A stretch of DNA of 64,000 nucleotides from an uncultured Ignavibacteriales bacterium (GTDB lineage Bacteria > Zixibacteria > MSB-5A5 > GN15 > JAAZOE01): positions 1 through 64,000 of the forward strand of contig CAZSYD010000008.1 in the NCBI GenBank assembly GCA_964611355.1. Direction: 5' to 3'. Made by a program: the position numbers. Positions 42,001-60,000 of this stretch are shown here, in pieces. Each line of letters starts with the position of its first letter. The stretch's first letter is position 1.

Positions 42001-45000
42001 CCCGGGCGCCGACAGTTGCGAAGTATGGGTTGACAATAGTCCCATGGTTAATTCGTCAAAACGCAAATATATCGGCACAGCCTCTCAATGGACAGTATCG
42101 CTGGATTTACCTTTCGGCGCGTGGTACTGGAAGGTTCGAGCATATTATCCTTCCGGTCGGAGTGAATGGAGCGTGGTATTCAGCTTCAGGATATGCGATA
42201 TTCCGGATACTCCCACGCTTGTGCGGCCATTGAACGGGTCGACCGGTCTCAGTCAGCCGATCAGTATGGACTGGGGCGACGTGGGCGGCGCAGCAATTTA
42301 TCGCCTGAGGATAGTCGGTAGTCAAATCGACACGCTGTTAACCGTTTCCAGCTTCAGCGCTTCGGGGTTGAGTAATGGAACGGCATATTCCTGGCAAGTA
42401 CAAGCGCAGAATGCATGTGGTTTCTGGAGCGGATGGAGCCCTCAGTGGAGCTTTACTACCGACTGCCCGGTTCCACAGCCGCCTTCGCTTGTCAGTCCGC
42501 CGGACGGAGATACTGTTGAGCTGGTGGAAATTGTCTGGAACAGCGTAAGCGAGGCATCGAATTATCATCTGCAGGTTGATACCAACCCTGCTTTTGGCAA
42601 TCCGGAAATCGATACGATGTTAACATCCGTCGGTTTTGCCACCACCGAACTGGCCGATATGACCGAATATTGCTGGCGTGTCAGAGCGGAAAACGATTGC
42701 GGCTGGAGTCAGTGGAGCCAGGTGTGGAAATTTATTACTAATACGCCGACTGGCGTAACCGAAGATGAATTATCCGGGCTGCCGAATGAGTTCGCTCTGA
42801 GTCAGAATTATCCAAACCCGTTTAACCCTTCTTCCATGATCGATTACAGCCTGTCGAACCGATCTTATGTAAGGCTGGATGTTTTTAACCTGGTCGGCGA
42901 ACTGGTGGTAACGTTAGTCGACGAGGTCAAGTCTCCCGGCCGATATTCGGTAGTGTGGAACGGTAAAGACCAGTCAGGCAAGCCGGTACCAAGCGGCGTG
43001 TACTTATATCGCCTGCAGGCCGGTTCCTTTGCCGCTTCGAAAAAGATGATGCTTTTGAAATAACGCCTCGGCTTGATAAAGCCTGCCCGCCATTTATTCG
43101 AGATACAAATAAACCCATCTCTGAAGATTATCTATCAAACGGTTATTATCAGATTGATGACAAAGCCAGAGAGTATCATCCTGGGAAGTCCTGCGCAGCG
43201 CTGCGAAGTCCTGAGTGAAGCGAAGGAAGTAAGACAGAGCAAGTAAAGCGAAAAACGACACGGCGATCTCGAAAATTCGAATATTATAGTGACCTTGAGA
43301 TTGCCGCGGTCGCCAGGGCTACTTTGCAATGACTCGGGTATTGGTTTATCAACCGGCAGTGACCCGCCTGTGGGCAGGTGTTTCAAATTCAGGATTTTTA
43401 AGTAGTTATTTCCGGCGATTGATTATACCGATTCCAACCATACCAAGGCCAAGAAGAATCATCGTGCACGGCTCGGGGATGGCGTCCATCGTATAGGTGC
43501 CATGAATCAGGTCATTGCCGCAGCTTATGGTTGTGTTGAAAAACAGTTCATCGCCGAGGTTCCAGTCAAAATAATCCAAGTCAATCTTGAACTCATGTGC
43601 CCAGACGCTGTGCGGTCCGCCGCCACCTAAAGGAGAAGCCTCGGCATCATTGAACTCGGTCAGAGTATGTTCGATCAAATGACTTTGGTTCCAATCGGTA
43701 ACCTGATAAGCCCCGACCGCGCCTTCCACCCAGGTGCCGTAGTAGCTTCCGGGTTGATCGGGAATTCCCGAAACGCCGGCGACGTGTTGCAGGAATGTGG
43801 TGTTTCCAATGAATTCGTCGGTCTGACCCAGGTCGATGGCGTAAGTGTTGGCGTTATAATCGCCGGTACCGAAAAAGATATCGCCGTGATAGTATTTTTG
43901 GCCGGGATAATAACTCGTGGTCGCGTACATTCCGAAAGAACTGGTCATGGCCACGTATAGATGCTTGGCGTCCATATAGACAAAAAAGCCTTCCAGGTCG
44001 AAATGTTCACCCTGCGCGCCGCCGGGCGAGGGAAGAGCGCCAACATGAGGGTAGTTTATGGGAGCCCAGTCGTTATTGGAGCCTGTAGCACTGGCCGGAA
44101 CGACATCAAACGGCGAATCGCCGAAATCGTGTAACTGCCAGTTCAAGGCCATCGCGGGATTTCCAAGCAGGATGGCGATCACGATAAAAGCTGCAGTCGA
44201 AAAACGCTTCATGTTATATACCCCTTGACGAATATTATTCTCTTTTTTCACTCATTATAGGAGCAATTGATATGCCATTAGAGTAATTGTTACATTTAAC
44301 ATTATAACTTATTGATAATTAATAAAATAGAAGATAGCAGCAATTTTGGGCGGTGGTATTTACCACTTTTTAATCAGGTTTTCTAGCTAAACTGTAGGGA
44401 ATCAGGACAGTTGAGGGATTTCGATTTAATAATGTCTCTCAATACCTGGGGAATATTCGACTTTATACATATTATGCGATAATTTCAATTTCAATAAATG
44501 TACGGCACACCCGTTTGCCGGAATTTCCTGTAATTGATTAAACTATAATAGAATAGACTTGGTAGATTGTTGATAACAAGCGTTGCGTTAAACAACGGTG
44601 GGTCTCTGTTGGTTGTAAAAAACCATGCAAAAGCGATATATCCGGTATTAGGGTATCATTTATCAGGTTTTTAATCGGCAATGCTTACTGTCCGCAAACC
44701 GGACAAACCGCCTAATCTTTGGTCTATTATCGTTATTTATTGCCGTTCAAGAAGATAATGAGTAAATGCTGTCCAGCTTTACTACAATCAAAATCCATGC
44801 TGTTTTGCGGTTGATTACCAAGCGGCCCTGATGATTAAGATACTTGGAGGAATTATATGAATTCTGATCAAAGAACGGCTTCCCCTTTATCCGGGACGGC
44901 CATGTTTGAGAATGTCCGTTTCAGGGAATCTCAGCCTGTTGTCATGAAAGGCGCTCACGAACGGATGTCAACGGGTATTGCCTTTCTTTCGGGGGAATGG

Positions 45001-57000: not shown

Positions 57001-60000
57001 GGAATTGATACCACCAAAGACTACGGCGGGACGCTTATCTGGTTTTCCGACCGGATTCAGGATATCGACGGGGACGGCGGCAACGTGGAGCTGGCTGTTC
57101 AGATTGTTGCTTGGGTTGACGGACTGCCCACGCATACTTTCGCCACGATGCAGGTCGTCTCCGACTCGCTCGAAAATTTCCTCGATGCGGCGATGGATTC
57201 ATCCTCGAGCGCCGCGGCGTTATCCAAGGATTGCCTTGACAGCCTGCAGAATCAGGACGACTGGGTCGGGAACGTGCGGTATAACTGCGCCGATTCGATT
57301 CTGAGGCTGCGTGGTTTGCACGTTCGAGGAACGAATGCGGGCGATACGGGGCTGATTGCCATTGGCCATACCGACGGGTCCGGGGCGTACTTCAGCGGCG
57401 GCGCGGGTAATGCGCACGGGCTTTATGCCCGCGGTTTCGGAACCGGCAACGGCTTTTTAATTCAGGCTGATTCCACCGGCCACGGTATCCGGGCTCAGGG
57501 CGGACAAACCAGCGGCGACGGTATTCTTGCCGAGGCTCGCGGAAGCGCCTCCTCCTCTTACGGTATCCGGGGTAACGGGCAGGCGGCCGGTGCAGGCATC
57601 TATGGTTATGGCGGTCCGTCCGGAAACGGTATTCAGGGCGTCAGCGGCGGTGCCGGGCATGGCGCATATTTCAGGGGCGGTTCATCCGGCGGCCATGGCT
57701 TTTTGGCCGAAGCGCAGGCGGGCGACAGTTGCGGTATCGCGGCGCGCGGTCATGGTTCGGGCGGTGATTTTGCAGTCACTATTGATCTCGACGATCTGAC
57801 AGGTACCCTCGATGCCTCGGAGATTGGGACTGGTGCCATCGGTGGCGATGAGATGGCCGCTTCGGCGGCGGCGGAAATGGCCGTCGGCGTCTGGGGATAC
57901 CTGCTTGACACCGCCTGGACAGCCGGATCGTTCGGCGACTCCGCCAAAGGATGGGGCGCGACATCCGCTTCCGGTCTTGATTCGGGAGTGGTGCAGCGAA
58001 TTGCCAATCGGCGCCTCGATTCAACCCAGACGGCCGACGTGATCTCAGGGACGATTGACAGTATTGGCGGCGGCGGGGTTGACGCTATATGGAATGAAAC
58101 TCAAGCCGATCACGGCCAGGCCGGTACTTTTGGTTTCTACCTTGATGCGCCCATAAGCGGTATCGAAGCGCCTTCGGGAAGCGGGTCGTACCCGGTGACT
58201 CTGGCCGTGATTGACAGCGTCAATGCTCAGGTTGTTCCGGGAGCAAAACTATCGGTTTATAATCTCGGTCTTGACGCCCTTTTGGCGATCGGCGCTACCG
58301 GATCGGAAGGGACGGCGGTCTTTAATCTTGACTCCGGCGGTTATGTTGTCTCCACATTCGCGCCGGGATATATTTTTTCGACGTATGATACCATAACCGT
58401 TTCCGGAACCACCAGCGATAGTATCGCCGGGTATCGGTTTGATCCCGGCAGTCCGCCGGTTGGGGATCTTTGCCGGGTGTACGGGTTTATCTACGGTATC
58501 GACGGCCGGCCGGTAGAAGGGGTCCGGGTGGACGCGCAGATTACCGACGGCGTTGTCCGGCATAATTCGACGATTATCAGTCCATACCGGAAAAGCGTCG
58601 TTACCGATTCGACCGGATACTTCTATCTCGATTTGATACCTTCCGACAAGCTGGCCCCGCCACAGACGGAATACCTGATAACCGCGACCTATCCCGCGGG
58701 AACGATCCTGAAGAAGAAAATCCAGGTCCCTGCCGGCGACAACTGGCTTCTGGCCTGGTAGAAAGGAAGAAAGAATGTCATTTCCGGGTTCAATACTTGA
58801 TTTTATCGCCAACAATCTACTCAGTCTCGCCGGCGGTATATGGGCGGCGGTCGGTTTTCTGATTACCTGGCTGGCCAAACAATACCTGGTTCCTCTCCTG
58901 AAGGTGGAAAGGAATCGGCGGTATGCCCGATGGATTGCAGCCATCGCCGATGAGTTGACGGATGATTTGAAAGCGCGTTATCCGGGCAATAAATGGATCA
59001 GCGAACTGGATGAGGCCGTCGATCGAATTATGGAGATTTGCGGCATCGAAAAAGCGATTGCCGGACGGGCAATCCGGGCTGCGGTTGCCCGGAAAAGCTG
59101 AGAATCCCAAACGAAAACCCCGCCGAAGGCCGGCGGGGTTTTCAATCTATCATAAAACCCTGTAATTAGGGGCAAGGAGGCGGCCCTGACAGGAACAGGT
59201 ATTTGTGTAAATAAATAACGTCGGAAATATCCACCGAACCATCGCAGTTGACATCAGCCGCTTCGTGGCCGGTAACCGGTGGCGGGCCGTCGCCGTACAG
59301 GAAATTGGTCAGATAGACGATATCGGCCGGGGTCACACCACCGTCATCGTCAACGTCACCCGGAATACAACCAACGATACAATCGATATGTGTCAGAACT
59401 GAGGTGCAACCCTTATTGCCGTTGGCGTCATGGGCGGTGGCGAAAAGGAAATAGAGCGAATCTTCATCCAGAGAACCGGTATCCCAGTAGAATTGCCAGC
59501 CGTCCCCCGGGTTGGCGTCGATACCGACGGCGGTGCGGCTGACCGTCCAGTCAAAAGGAACAGCCCCGACCATAATATCGACCTCAACCCACACGTCATT
59601 GTACGATATCCATAGCTTGTCGGCTTCTTCTTTAGCCGTGAAGTCGTTGATTGCGGCGGTTACCGGATTGACCATGCTTAAAACATAATGGCGGTTGTTA
59701 TCGGCCAGGCCGGTGGCGCCGGCGATCGTCATCCACACTCCGGGATTGCCGGATATCCCGACCATAACAATATATTCGTAATCCTCGGCCCAACTGCGTA
59801 ACATGGCCATGGTTGGCTGGCGATCAATATGCAAATCAAGCTGATTTCCGTGGGCGACAACATATTCGCGCAGTCCCGAAACGAATTCGCCGTCATAGGA
59901 TCCAAGATTTTCCCGGATGTGCATGGCGGAAAAAAGGCGATCTATGAGCTGGGTATCGGTCAATGTAGTCGTGCCTTCGGTTAAGAGATAGTTGTATCCC

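What a model noticed while it worked through the whole genome (the two positions that open the first line are those of the whole stretch)
44857..58775. Single-copy phage head-tail gene cluster kept across the whole phylum: a candidate gene transfer agent
A 14-kb block of 16 genes holds a portal, a large terminase, a major capsid protein, a virion protein and tail-like genes, but no integrase, repressor, replication or lysis gene, and the same block stands once per genome in nearly all Zixibacteria. I read it as a domesticated phage remnant under host control, most likely a gene transfer agent (or other DNA-packaging particle) that arose in the ancestor of the phylum. New: a GTA-like element in an uncultured FCB phylum, far from the few lineages where GTAs are known.
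Evidence so far: PHROGs: portal g00597 7e-18, TerL g00598 3e-29, virion protein g00604 6e-8, major head protein g00605 1e-64, tail-like g00607; Pfam adds only Terminase_6N. The capsid protein is found at E<=1e-30 in 253 of 285 Zixibacteria genomes, 189 of 198 high-quality ones, 118 of 130 genera, almost always one match per genome, with identity falling with kinship: 76-85% in the family, about 62-72% in the order and class; the next relatives outside the phylum are Oscillospiraceae at 32-38%. In 16 of 16 relatives' loci with full flanks the order portal-TerL-g00600-g00604-capsid-g00606-g00607-g00608-g00611 is kept; the block spans 12.0-15.2 kb and abuts housekeeping genes in four recurrent settings (6, 5, 3 [...]
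(Added by a program. Inside this text positions count along the whole contig: contig position 1 is position 1 of the stretch shown here. "Call 12" and the like, gene names such as g00115 and contig names such as C1 are that model's own, and its searches are not shown. The text may have been shortened before it was handed on; [...] marks where a part breaks off. The agent that wrote the report below was given it as the finding of a first reader that could run no searches.)

Follow-up and report, generated by a model that had tools for sequence, protein, structure and literature searches.

The report
Phylum-wide domesticated phage capsid-packaging cluster
Nearly all Zixibacteria carry one inherited copy of a phage-derived gene set for building a capsid and pumping DNA into it, without any genes for a phage life of its own, so it is probably a host-owned particle such as a gene transfer agent, although no particle has been seen.

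Summary
No integrase, repressor or replication gene lies in or beside the block, and housekeeping genes flank it. The MCP is in 255 of 285 phylum genomes and 189 of 198 high-quality ones.

New here:
- The MCP tree follows host families. 6 of 7 families are each one branch and the label changes are at the minimum.
- All genes are under purifying selection.
- TerL keeps its ATPase and nuclease motifs.
- No close relative is in IMG/VR or GenBank phages.

Corrections:
- There is no tube, sheath or tape-measure gene. The genes after the MCP look like a neck plus a sugar-binding propeller, so at most a short tail.
- g15 and g16 carry signal peptides.
- g05 and g06 are spurious. A minus-strand lipoprotein gene lies there instead.
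- The TerL call is truncated.
- Closer outside relatives exist (39-44% identity), among them a capsid-only cluster in Hinthialibacterota.
- Three genomes show partial deletions of the block.

Domestication is well supported. Gene transfer itself is inferred, not shown.

The parts
44252..44856 (+). AT-rich non-coding leader (GC about 0.41) before the portal gene. It holds the palindrome TGTCC-N7-GGACA at 44689-44705 and a degenerate second copy about 81 bp downstream.
   Evidence: The palindrome sits at about the same distance from the portal start in 7 of 9 same-family loci. It is absent upstream of portal in 15 of 16 more distant loci, and the one hit there is far off. No Rfam family matches.
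44857..46128 (+). Portal protein (423 aa)
   Evidence: phrog_3753 7.1e-18. Present in 24 loci. dN/dS 0.15. No solved relative by sequence.
46089..47495 (+). Large terminase, TerL. The frame is open from 46089. The first ATG/GTG/TTG is only at 46359, downstream of the Walker A motif TGNRWGKS.
   Evidence: phrog_2 2.6e-29, Terminase_6N. The profile hits the Thermus phage TerL nuclease 5tge at 9e-12 and the ATPase 4znj at 4e-6. Walker A, Walker B/DE, the STP motif and three nuclease Asp residues are conserved in the 25-sequence alignment. Start-codon anomaly.
47980..49884 (+). g04, about 634 aa from the conserved start (ORF call 47800). The N-terminal domain is phrog_16951 with invariant Ser111, His142 and a CxxC...CxH cluster. 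The C-terminal part is variable with a weak DNA-ligase-like signal. Probably a head maturation or scaffold protein.
   Evidence: phrog_16951 5.4e-17. Its homologue lies between portal and MCP in the Clostridia relatives. Invariant residues. Ligase-like signal: PDB 3rr5 E 0.004, Pfam DNA_ligase_A_M in 2 of 29 members, LigD 0.0046. The motif I lysine is not conserved (alignment).
49859..50542 (-). Embedded minus-strand lipoprotein gene (227 aa, signal peptide plus lipobox VAVGC). It replaces the spurious + ORFs g05 and g06.
   Evidence: Mismatch rate by codon phase is 0.61/0.40/0.29, which fits the minus frame. Found in 14 loci with a conserved Cys. No family assigned.
50614..50931 (+). g07, 105 aa: one membrane helix plus a coiled coil (holin- or spanin-like, or an assembly factor)
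   Evidence: Sequence and 18-locus alignment. No family hit.
50891..51367 (+). g08, 158 aa: acidic and helical, with a conserved C-terminal (Y/F)K(S/IG). A scaffold-like protein by position and composition.
   Evidence: This is inference, with no family hit.
51442..51864 (+). g09, 140 aa: virion structural or head decoration protein
   Evidence: phrog_4588 5.7e-8, phrog_122 0.002. Length is invariant at 139-145 aa in 29 loci. dN/dS 0.09.
51883..52989 (+). Major capsid protein (368 aa)
   Evidence: phrog_3922 1.4e-64. Weak HK97 TIGR01554 hit. Found in 255 of 285 genomes. dN/dS 0.095.
53011..54450 (+). g11, 479 aa: seven-bladed beta-propeller with Asp-box motifs, of a carbohydrate-binding or -cleaving type. 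Candidate nozzle or receptor-binding protein.
   Evidence: AlphaFold2 pLDDT 91.6. VIA Z 27.8 to PLL lectins and 25.7 to PL25 ulvan lyase. Foldseek also lists the LME-1 phage portal-tail chain 9efk_M and P22 Gp10-type proteins in BFVD at TM about 0.36. Found in 30 loci.
54453..55265 (+). g12, 270 aa: probable head-tail adaptor with an inserted repeat domain
   Evidence: Only residues 132-174 hit families: phrog_807 and tail_tube_6XGR 3.3e-8. An Atlas lead to Phage_Gp19 scores 0.89. The helical termini resemble gp6-type adaptors, which is a recalled resemblance. No PDB hit.
55280..55917 (+). g13 (124 aa) and g14 (85 aa, basic N-terminus plus a helical core): small conserved proteins, candidate neck or plug or DNA-binding parts
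   Evidence: Conserved in 21-24 loci. No family or structure match.
55961..58761 (+). g15 (272 aa) and g16 (661 aa): length-variable secreted proteins with Sec signal peptides. g16 has a Gly-rich middle part and a conserved C-terminal CarboxypepD_reg/CnaB-like part.
   Evidence: Signal peptides in nearly all orthologues (17 of 19 g16 rows as called). CarboxypepD_reg 5.4e-6. Collagen-binding B-domain 8bdw E 0.014. Length 338-746 aa.
58775..59101 (+). g17, 108 aa: N-terminal membrane helix plus a strongly conserved soluble domain
   Evidence: 45-66% identity across 10 loci. No family or structure hit.
59166..61358 (-). Convergent 730-aa secreted protein with a C-terminal dockerin domain. It is a recurrent neighbour of the block, and whether it belongs to it is uncertain.
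   Evidence: Dockerin_1 3.1e-10. It follows the block in 13 loci, including distant lineages at 28-37% identity.

Best explanation
The block is a phage head-and-neck DNA-packaging module that was captured in or before the last common ancestor of the sampled Zixibacteria. It has since been inherited with the chromosome as a host gene set, that is, a viriform of the gene-transfer-agent kind. Proposed working: MCP, the g09 decoration protein, a scaffold-like g08 and the g04 maturation protein build a procapsid on the portal. TerL, whose ATPase and nuclease motifs are intact, fills the procapsid with DNA. No small terminase was found, so initiation is probably not sequence-specific and the cargo would be whatever DNA is at hand, meaning host DNA. 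g12 and g13/g14 close the portal. The g11 sugar-binding propeller forms a short nozzle or receptor-binding tip. The membrane proteins g07 and g17 are candidates for release. Expression would come from the long AT-rich leader, which carries a palindromic operator pair in the window's family. Shown here: gene identities, vertical descent, purifying selection, lack of autonomy modules, and chromosomal single-copy state. Inferred: particle formation, random packaging, release, and delivery to other cells.
For: Head and packaging genes are identified. TerL motifs are conserved wherever the N-terminal part is present in the 25-sequence alignment. The MCP is in 255 of 285 genomes and 189 of 198 high-quality genomes, mostly as one match. 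In the MCP tree of 84 Zixibacteria and 5 outgroup rows, 6 of 7 host families are each one branch (SH-aLRT 95-100), the same-order families group together, and there are 7 label changes, which is the minimum, against a shuffled mean of 60.7 with 0 of 200 shuffles as low. With closer outgroups the Zixibacteria rows still form one side of a branch, but with support of only 68. dN/dS is 0.09-0.28 for 11 block genes against 0.16 for LipA, with dS saturated. No integrase, repressor, replication gene, tRNA or att repeat was found. Flanks are housekeeping genes in several recurrent settings: Tol-Pal/PPDK/LipA, Rpe/PASTA/CvpA...PgsA/Lon, and IMPDH. None of 32 IMG/VR hits and none of 7 GenBank phage hits is of the Zixibacteria type; all are at or below 38% identity. 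A TerS gene sits beside TerL in the Clostridia relatives, but none is found in the block or in the own genome with phrog_51. Four metagenome runs show contigs bridging the left flank-to-block junction (at the right end two contigs abut at 59295/59299), similar contig depth in block and flanks, and no contig joining across the whole block. Block GC exceeds flank GC in 14 of 14 loci, by a mean of 2.6 points. In the own genome this comes with higher GC2 and cheaper amino acids, a bias also reported for alphaproteobacterial GTA clusters (PMC7360931, passages read).
Against: No particle, packaged DNA or transfer has been observed. No RNA run is on record, so expression is unknown. No recognisable tail tube, sheath, tape measure, baseplate, endolysin or small terminase is present. 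g15 and g16, which the block keeps in every lineage, are Sec-exported proteins, which does not fit cytoplasmic virion assembly. Two host-type minus-strand genes sit inside the block. The window's TerL lacks a canonical start codon upstream of its Walker A motif. The block is a compositional outlier in its own genome, at the 98.7th percentile of tetranucleotide distance, and its GC3 is raised too, which differs from the GC1/GC2-only pattern described for RcGTA. Four of five high-quality MCP-less genomes keep an intact TerL (portal seen in the three fetched), so the parts can outlive the whole, at least for a while. A related cluster in another phylum has the capsid genes but no portal or TerL, which shows that this capsid lineage can also be kept for something other than DNA packaging.
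Confidence: 0.5

Rival explanations
1. The block is a domesticated capsid and packaging machine kept for a host function other than gene exchange. Examples would be DNA export for matrix building, a kin-directed or defensive particle, or interference with infecting phages by hijacking their assembly. The secreted proteins g15, g16, the lipoprotein and the dockerin neighbour would be part of that cell-surface function.
For: The vertical descent and selection evidence is the same as for the best explanation. Secreted and surface genes are built into the block in every lineage. The Hinthialibacterota-type relatives keep the capsid genes without portal or TerL.
Against: Portal and TerL are retained with intact catalytic motifs in nearly all genomes, which argues that DNA filling is the selected activity. 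There are no PADLOC defence-family hits for 17 proteins. No cargo-loading or enzyme gene typical of nanocompartments was seen.
Confidence: 0.25
2. The block is a helper-dependent satellite, such as a capsid-forming island, or an unusually faithful temperate phage whose missing functions are supplied in trans.
For: The gene content is head and packaging only, as in capsid-forming islands. The Clostridia relatives include head-only clusters next to housekeeping genes (L064: TerS-TerL-portal-phrog_16951-MCP-three small genes, then PPDK).
Against: There is no integrase, primase/replicase, regulator or att repeat. The block is near-universal as a single copy and diverges with its host families, which mobile satellites do not do. 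No empty-site contig was seen in four metagenomes. No such element is in IMG/VR.
Confidence: 0.08
3. The block is an inert prophage remnant that merely has not yet decayed.
For: Three genomes show large internal or terminal deletions. The window's TerL lacks a canonical start. Composition still differs from the host.
Against: Open reading frames are intact across seven families and more than 250 genomes, at 55-85% protein identity. dN/dS is well below 1 in every gene. Protein lengths are invariant for g09, MCP, g11 and g13. The deletions are confined to single species whose congeners keep the block (g30 7 of 8, g36 4 of 5).
Confidence: 0.05

Closest known systems
Gene transfer agents / viriforms (RcGTA-type Rhodogtaviriformidae, Bartonella BaGTA, Brachyspira VSH-1), as defined in PMC9662315 (abstract and one passage read)
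   Same: Caudovirus-derived structural and packaging genes sit in the chromosome without lysogeny or replication genes. They are inherited vertically and co-diverge with the host. They evolve slowly under purifying selection. GC is raised relative to the host (PMC7360931).
   Different: The ancestry is independent: the MCP is phrog_3922 type, with nearest relatives in Clostridia elements and Hinthialibacterota. No tube, tape measure or baseplate is present, so any tail is short at most. No TerS was found. Portal precedes TerL. Secreted and lipoprotein genes lie inside the block. The spread is phylum-wide in an uncultured FCB lineage. No functional data exist.
Clostridia (Oscillospiraceae/Acutalibacteraceae) head modules with phrog_3922 MCP, phrog_30703 portal and phrog_16951
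   Same: They share homologous MCP (32-38%), portal (20-27%) and the g04 N-domain (23-33%).
   Different: They have TerS-TerL-portal order and no g11 propeller. They occur as IMG/VR viral contigs and are followed either by baseplate genes (L078) or directly by host genes (L064). Whether they co-diverge with their hosts was not examined.
Capsid-only cluster in Candidatus Hinthialibacterota and unnamed bacteria ('group H', loci L185-L198)
   Same: It shares a g09-like protein (39-44%), MCP (34-38%) and a phrog_16951 protein (34-38%). Housekeeping genes flank it. MCP identity among 14 species genomes is 63-88%.
   Different: It is about 7 kb with a different gene order. No portal or TerL is in the locus by tblastn, Pfam or PHROGs. 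It has a protein with a Dit C-terminal domain. The rest of those genomes was not searched.
Short-tailed phages of the P22/T7 kind (adaptor plus beta-propeller nozzle)
   Same: An adaptor-like protein and a 479-aa propeller lie directly after the capsid gene. BFVD lists P22 Gp10-type proteins of 496-522 aa among the matches, and PDB lists the LME-1 portal-tail chain.
   Different: TM-scores are only 0.36-0.38, no better than for sialidases and lectins. The best structural matches are lectins and polysaccharide lyases. No tailspike, needle or ejection proteins were recognised.

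Membership tests
Gene transfer agent (viriform) | Caudovirus-type particle genes encoded in the cell's chromosome | tested here: met
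   Portal, TerL, MCP and decoration protein. Housekeeping flanks.
Gene transfer agent (viriform) | Vertical transmission with the cellular genome and co-divergence with hosts | tested here: met
   The MCP tree has 6 of 7 families as single branches and the minimum number of label changes, with 0 of 200 shuffles as low. All 7 are single branches in the subsample with closer outgroups. Identity falls with kinship.
Gene transfer agent (viriform) | Cannot propagate itself: no integration, replication or lysogeny modules | tested here: met
   None found by PHROGs, Pfam or NCBIfam in the block and flanks. No att repeat or tRNA.
Gene transfer agent (viriform) | Particles package mostly random host DNA, less than needed to encode the particle | not testable with these tools
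   There are only indirect hints: no TerS found and even contig depth across block and flanks.
Gene transfer agent (viriform) | Production under host control in a subpopulation, release, and delivery of DNA to recipients | not testable with these tools
   A conserved palindrome pair lies upstream in 7 of 9 family loci. No RNA run is listed.
RcGTA-like head-tail cluster (Rhodogtaviriformidae) | Siphovirus-type tail genes (tube, tape measure, distal tail, hub) and RcGTA-type domains. The names of those domains are recalled, not taken from a call. | tested here: not met
   No tail tube, tape-measure or hub family appears in Pfam, PHROGs or NCBIfam. Only a 40-residue subdomain of g12 matches. Direct comparison with RcGTA proteins was not run.
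Functional temperate prophage | Integrase or att site, repressor, replication, lysis and complete virion modules | tested here: not met
Capsid-forming phage-inducible chromosomal island | Integrase, regulator, primase/replication module, and mobility between strains | tested here: not met
   No such genes. The host-congruent tree and near-universal single copy argue against mobility.
Encapsulin nanocompartment | HK97-fold shell without portal or terminase, with a cargo enzyme | tested here: not met
   Portal and TerL are present and conserved. This feature may be met by the Hinthialibacterota-type relatives, for which it is inconclusive.

The most novel reading that the evidence does not exclude
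Zixibacteria own an independently born, short-tailed or tail-less gene transfer agent that dates to the root of the phylum. Its block also encodes exported surface proteins (g15, g16, the lipoprotein, perhaps the dockerin neighbour), which would serve as the matching receptor or release apparatus, so that donor particle and recipient surface are inherited as one unit. A sister lineage in Hinthialibacterota lost portal and terminase and kept only the shell. That would document both fates of one captured phage head, a DNA-carrying viriform and a packaging-less compartment.
Probability: 0.25. Interest if true: 0.88.

Novelty: new variant of a known kind. Interest (0 to 1): 0.7.

Why it matters
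Known gene transfer agents come from a handful of cultured lineages. A separately domesticated one that is fixed across a whole uncultured sediment phylum would show that capture of phage heads for host use is a general and ancient route. It would give a mechanism for gene exchange in organisms that cannot yet be grown. It would also warn that 'viral' capsid and terminase genes in Zixibacteria bins, and Zixibacteria DNA in virome fractions, need not mean infection. The block is small (12-15 kb) and sharply bounded, so it is a tractable target for heterologous expression and cryo-EM. The capsid-only relatives offer a natural comparison for how packaging is gained or lost.

Tried and rejected
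The protease and ligase-like ideas for g04 therefore rest on weak sequence signals.
- Profile searches of solved structures gave nothing useful for g12, g16, g13, g14, portal, MCP or g17. The g14 hits to designed TIM barrels are low-complexity noise.
- hhalign of g12, g13 and g14 against small proteins of the Clostridia and Hinthialibacterota loci found nothing.
- PADLOC gave no hit for 17 proteins.
- Rfam gave one sub-threshold sRNA hit at 59110-59189, which I dismissed.
- No RNA holder is listed among 24 runs.
- The single joint 44500->48038 in the laid contigs has only 22 letters on one side and a different depth, so I treated it as foreign.
- A genome-wide regulon for the palindrome was not found: 16 relaxed matches against about 10 expected, and two of the three other strict copies lie inside ORFs.
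- I considered high GC3 of the MCP as codon adaptation and rejected it, because EF-Tu (0.62) and the ribosomal proteins (about 0.5-0.66) are lower than the MCP (0.69).
- I considered a portal-to-TerL frameshift for the missing start codon. No slippery site is evident in 46089-46128, so this stays open.
- Papers: searches for 'Zixibacteria' with 'gene transfer agent' returned 0 papers, and with 'prophage' 10 papers. None of the 9 listed is about such a cluster by title or abstract start.
- One search was badly framed and uninformative.

Full report
**What is there.** On the + strand between 44857 and 59101 lie 14 credible genes:
- portal;
- large terminase (TerL);
- g04;
- g07 (membrane helix plus coiled coil);
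- g08 (acidic, helical, scaffold-like);
- g09 (virion structural or decoration protein);
- the major capsid protein (MCP);
- g11, g12, g13, g14;
- two secreted proteins, g15 and g16;
- the small membrane protein g17.

Pfam adds only Terminase_6N above its cut-off. The flanks are ordinary cell genes. Upstream lie pyruvate phosphate dikinase, a Tol-Pal set, an Ig-rich T9SS-type surface protein and a PEP-CTERM protein. Downstream lie a dockerin-bearing secreted protein, lipoyl synthase and a response regulator. No integrase, repressor, replication gene, tRNA or bracketing direct repeat is present.

**Corrections to the gene map.**
- The two small + ORFs between g04 and g07 are not genes. Across seven family-level relatives, substitutions peak in the codon phase that fits the minus-strand ORF 49859-50542, with mismatch rates of 0.61, 0.40 and 0.29. 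The MCP control gave the expected pattern. This ORF encodes a 227-aa lipoprotein with a conserved lipobox cysteine and is present in 14 loci.
- In 19 other loci a small minus-strand PEP-CTERM protein lies between TerL and g04.
- The TerL ORF as listed (46359) is truncated. The frame is open from 46089 and encodes the conserved N-terminus with the Walker A motif, but it holds no ATG, GTG or TTG. The same is true in L034. Four further loci have only internal candidate starts, while most have an ATG about 50 codons before Walker A. Four metagenome runs show no indel there, so this is not an assembly slip.
- g04 most likely starts at 47980.

**Identities.**
- *TerL.* The TerL profile matches both the nuclease (5tge, 9e-12) and the ATPase (4znj, 4e-6) of a Thermus phage terminase. 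Its Walker A, Walker B, coupling and nuclease residues are conserved wherever the N-terminal part is present in the 25-sequence alignment.
- *g04.* The N-terminal domain belongs to phrog_16951. In the Clostridia relatives that family sits between portal and MCP, the usual place of a maturation protease or scaffold. It has invariant Ser, His and a Cys/His cluster. The variable C-terminal part gives three weak, mutually consistent hits to ATP-dependent DNA ligases, but the motif I lysine is not conserved. I treat this as a lead only. g04 could not be folded.
- *g11.* It folds with high confidence (pLDDT 91.6) into a seven-bladed propeller. It is closest to bacterial lectins (Z 27.8) and polysaccharide lyases (Z 25.7). 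Phage nozzle-type proteins appear among the matches but score no better than sialidases.
- *g12.* Only an inserted 40-residue subdomain matches families. A language-model lead points to the Phage_Gp19 family (0.89).
- *g15 and g16.* They carry Sec signal peptides in nearly all orthologues (17 of 19 g16 rows as called), so they are unlikely to be assembled onto cytoplasmic heads.
- *What is missing.* No tube, sheath, tape measure, baseplate, endolysin or small terminase was recognised.

The block is therefore a head, packaging and neck set with at most a short tip. It is not a head-tail cluster in the RcGTA sense.

**Spread and descent.**
- The MCP is found in 255 of 285 phylum genomes, 189 of 198 high-quality ones and 118 of 130 genera, mostly as one match. 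It is single in the own genome.
- Record titles of 31 related loci name Candidatus Zixiibacteriota or carry pipeline labels.
- Gene order is collinear in all 23 loci that span portal to g13.
- In an MCP tree of 84 Zixibacteria rows from seven families plus five Clostridia outgroups, two short rows were dropped. Six families are each a single well-supported branch. The seventh is split only at the long-branch root. The three same-order families group together. Label changes are at the minimum of 7, against a shuffled mean of 60.7, with 0 of 200 shuffles as low.
- A second tree used closer outgroups and up to six rows per family. All seven families are single branches and the Zixibacteria rows lie on one side of a branch, but with only 68% support for that branch. 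The six f5 rows there come from one genus.
- Pairwise dN/dS within the family is 0.09-0.28 for eleven block genes and 0.16 for neighbouring LipA. dS is saturated, so these are rough values.

**No free-living counterpart.** None of 32 IMG/VR hits and none of 7 GenBank phage hits exceeds 38% identity. In four salt-marsh metagenome runs, contigs bridge the left flank into the block (at the right end contigs abut without a bridging record), contig depths are alike inside and outside, and no contig joins across an empty site. These are contig data, so presence can be read from them but absence cannot.

**Complications.**
- *Partial blocks.* Five high-quality genomes without an MCP match were searched with the TerL profile, and four have an intact TerL. 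In the three loci fetched, one keeps portal-TerL-g04 and then jumps to g16-g17 with the same flanks. Two keep only portal-TerL, followed by GyrB or by UvrD and Fpg. Congeners keep the full block, so these look like recent, species-level losses.
- *Composition.* The block is a compositional outlier in its own genome. Its tetranucleotide distance is at the 98.7th percentile of 230 windows, and GC is 0.534 against 0.500. It is GC-richer than its flanks in 14 of 14 loci. In the own genome GC2 (0.444 against 0.395) and GC3 (0.614 against 0.576) are raised, and the amino acids are smaller and cheaper (the cost table is recalled). Raised GC through non-synonymous positions and cheap residues is described for alphaproteobacterial GTA clusters (PMC7360931, passages read). 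The raised GC3 here is not part of that pattern, and ribosomal-type codon bias does not explain it.
- *Closer outside relatives.* A scan of 1.84 billion representative proteins collapses the Zixibacteria MCPs into one full-length cluster and then finds proteins at 39-44% identity. One such cluster includes a Candidatus Hinthialibacter protein. Fourteen species genomes of that lineage hold a roughly 7-kb cluster with a g09-like gene, MCP, a Dit-domain protein, a phrog_16951 protein and four unknowns. Housekeeping genes flank it, and no portal or TerL is in the locus.

**Regulation.** The 600-bp AT-rich leader carries the palindrome TGTCC-N7-GGACA about 170 bp before the portal start, with a weaker copy 81 bp further on. 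This holds in 7 of 9 same-family loci but not in distant lineages. No genome-wide regulon emerged.

**Reading.** The evidence strongly supports an anciently captured, vertically inherited and selectively maintained phage head-packaging module without autonomy. That it makes DNA-filled particles is likely, because portal and TerL are conserved in functional form. That the DNA is random host DNA and is delivered to other cells is inference. It rests on the missing small terminase, the lack of any self-propagation genes and the analogy with known GTAs (definition from PMC9662315, abstract and one passage read). The built-in secreted proteins and the capsid-only sister cluster keep open a non-transfer function.

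I found no paper in the held library that links Zixibacteria to a gene transfer agent (0 papers) or that describes such a conserved prophage-like block (10 papers hold both words, and none of the 9 listed is on this topic by title or abstract start).

Noticed in passing
window 46089-46361: The conserved N-terminus of TerL, including Walker A, is in an open frame with no ATG/GTG/TTG start. The frame overlaps the portal stop (46126-46128) by 40 nt. The same holds in L034, and four more loci lack a start at the usual place. This suggests non-canonical initiation or coupling to portal translation, perhaps keeping TerL levels low.
   Followed up: partly
window 49859-50542 (-) and, in other loci, between TerL and g04: Host-type exported genes lie inside the phage-derived block on the opposite strand. 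One is a 227-aa lipoprotein (14 loci) and the other a small PEP-CTERM protein (19 loci). The window has no clear PEP-CTERM copy in 47496-47979.
   Followed up: partly
L185-L198 (14 loci), L180-L181: A second lineage, with one member named Candidatus Hinthialibacter, holds a roughly 7-kb cluster flanked by housekeeping genes. It contains a g09-like gene, MCP and a phrog_16951 gene but no portal or terminase in the locus. It may be a packaging-less domesticated capsid.
   Followed up: partly
L063, L064, L067 (Acutalibacteraceae); L078 (Ruminococcus bromii): The Clostridia relatives include compact head-only modules (TerS-TerL-portal-phrog_16951-MCP-three small genes) that end directly at pyruvate phosphate dikinase. 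The R. bromii locus continues into baseplate genes. Whether these are satellites, phages or domesticated elements was not examined.
   Followed up: no
window 44689-44705 and about 44773-44789: A palindrome pair TGTCC-N7-GGACA, 81 bp apart, lies upstream of the portal gene and is conserved in 7 of 9 same-family loci. It is a candidate operator for an unknown regulator.
   Followed up: partly
L175 (G086), L176 (G070), L177 (G018): These are partial blocks. Portal and TerL are intact while the capsid half is deleted. In G086 a response-regulator gene is inserted after TerL and g04 joins directly to the C-terminal part of g16.
   Followed up: yes
window 59166-61358 (-): A 730-aa secreted protein with a dockerin domain follows the block, convergently, in 13 loci across distant lineages (28-54% identity). 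It is either part of the system or a very old neighbour.
   Followed up: partly
window 44857-59101 against the whole genome: Block GC and tetranucleotide use differ from the host genome (98.7th percentile). MCP, g09 and g11 have GC3 at or above the 98th percentile of 1,783 long ORFs, higher than EF-Tu.
   Followed up: partly
G000 contig C16: 22059-23261 and 37902-39104: There are two EF-Tu matches with identical score (738.8 bits) about 15 kb apart on one contig, which looks like a tuf duplication.
   Followed up: no
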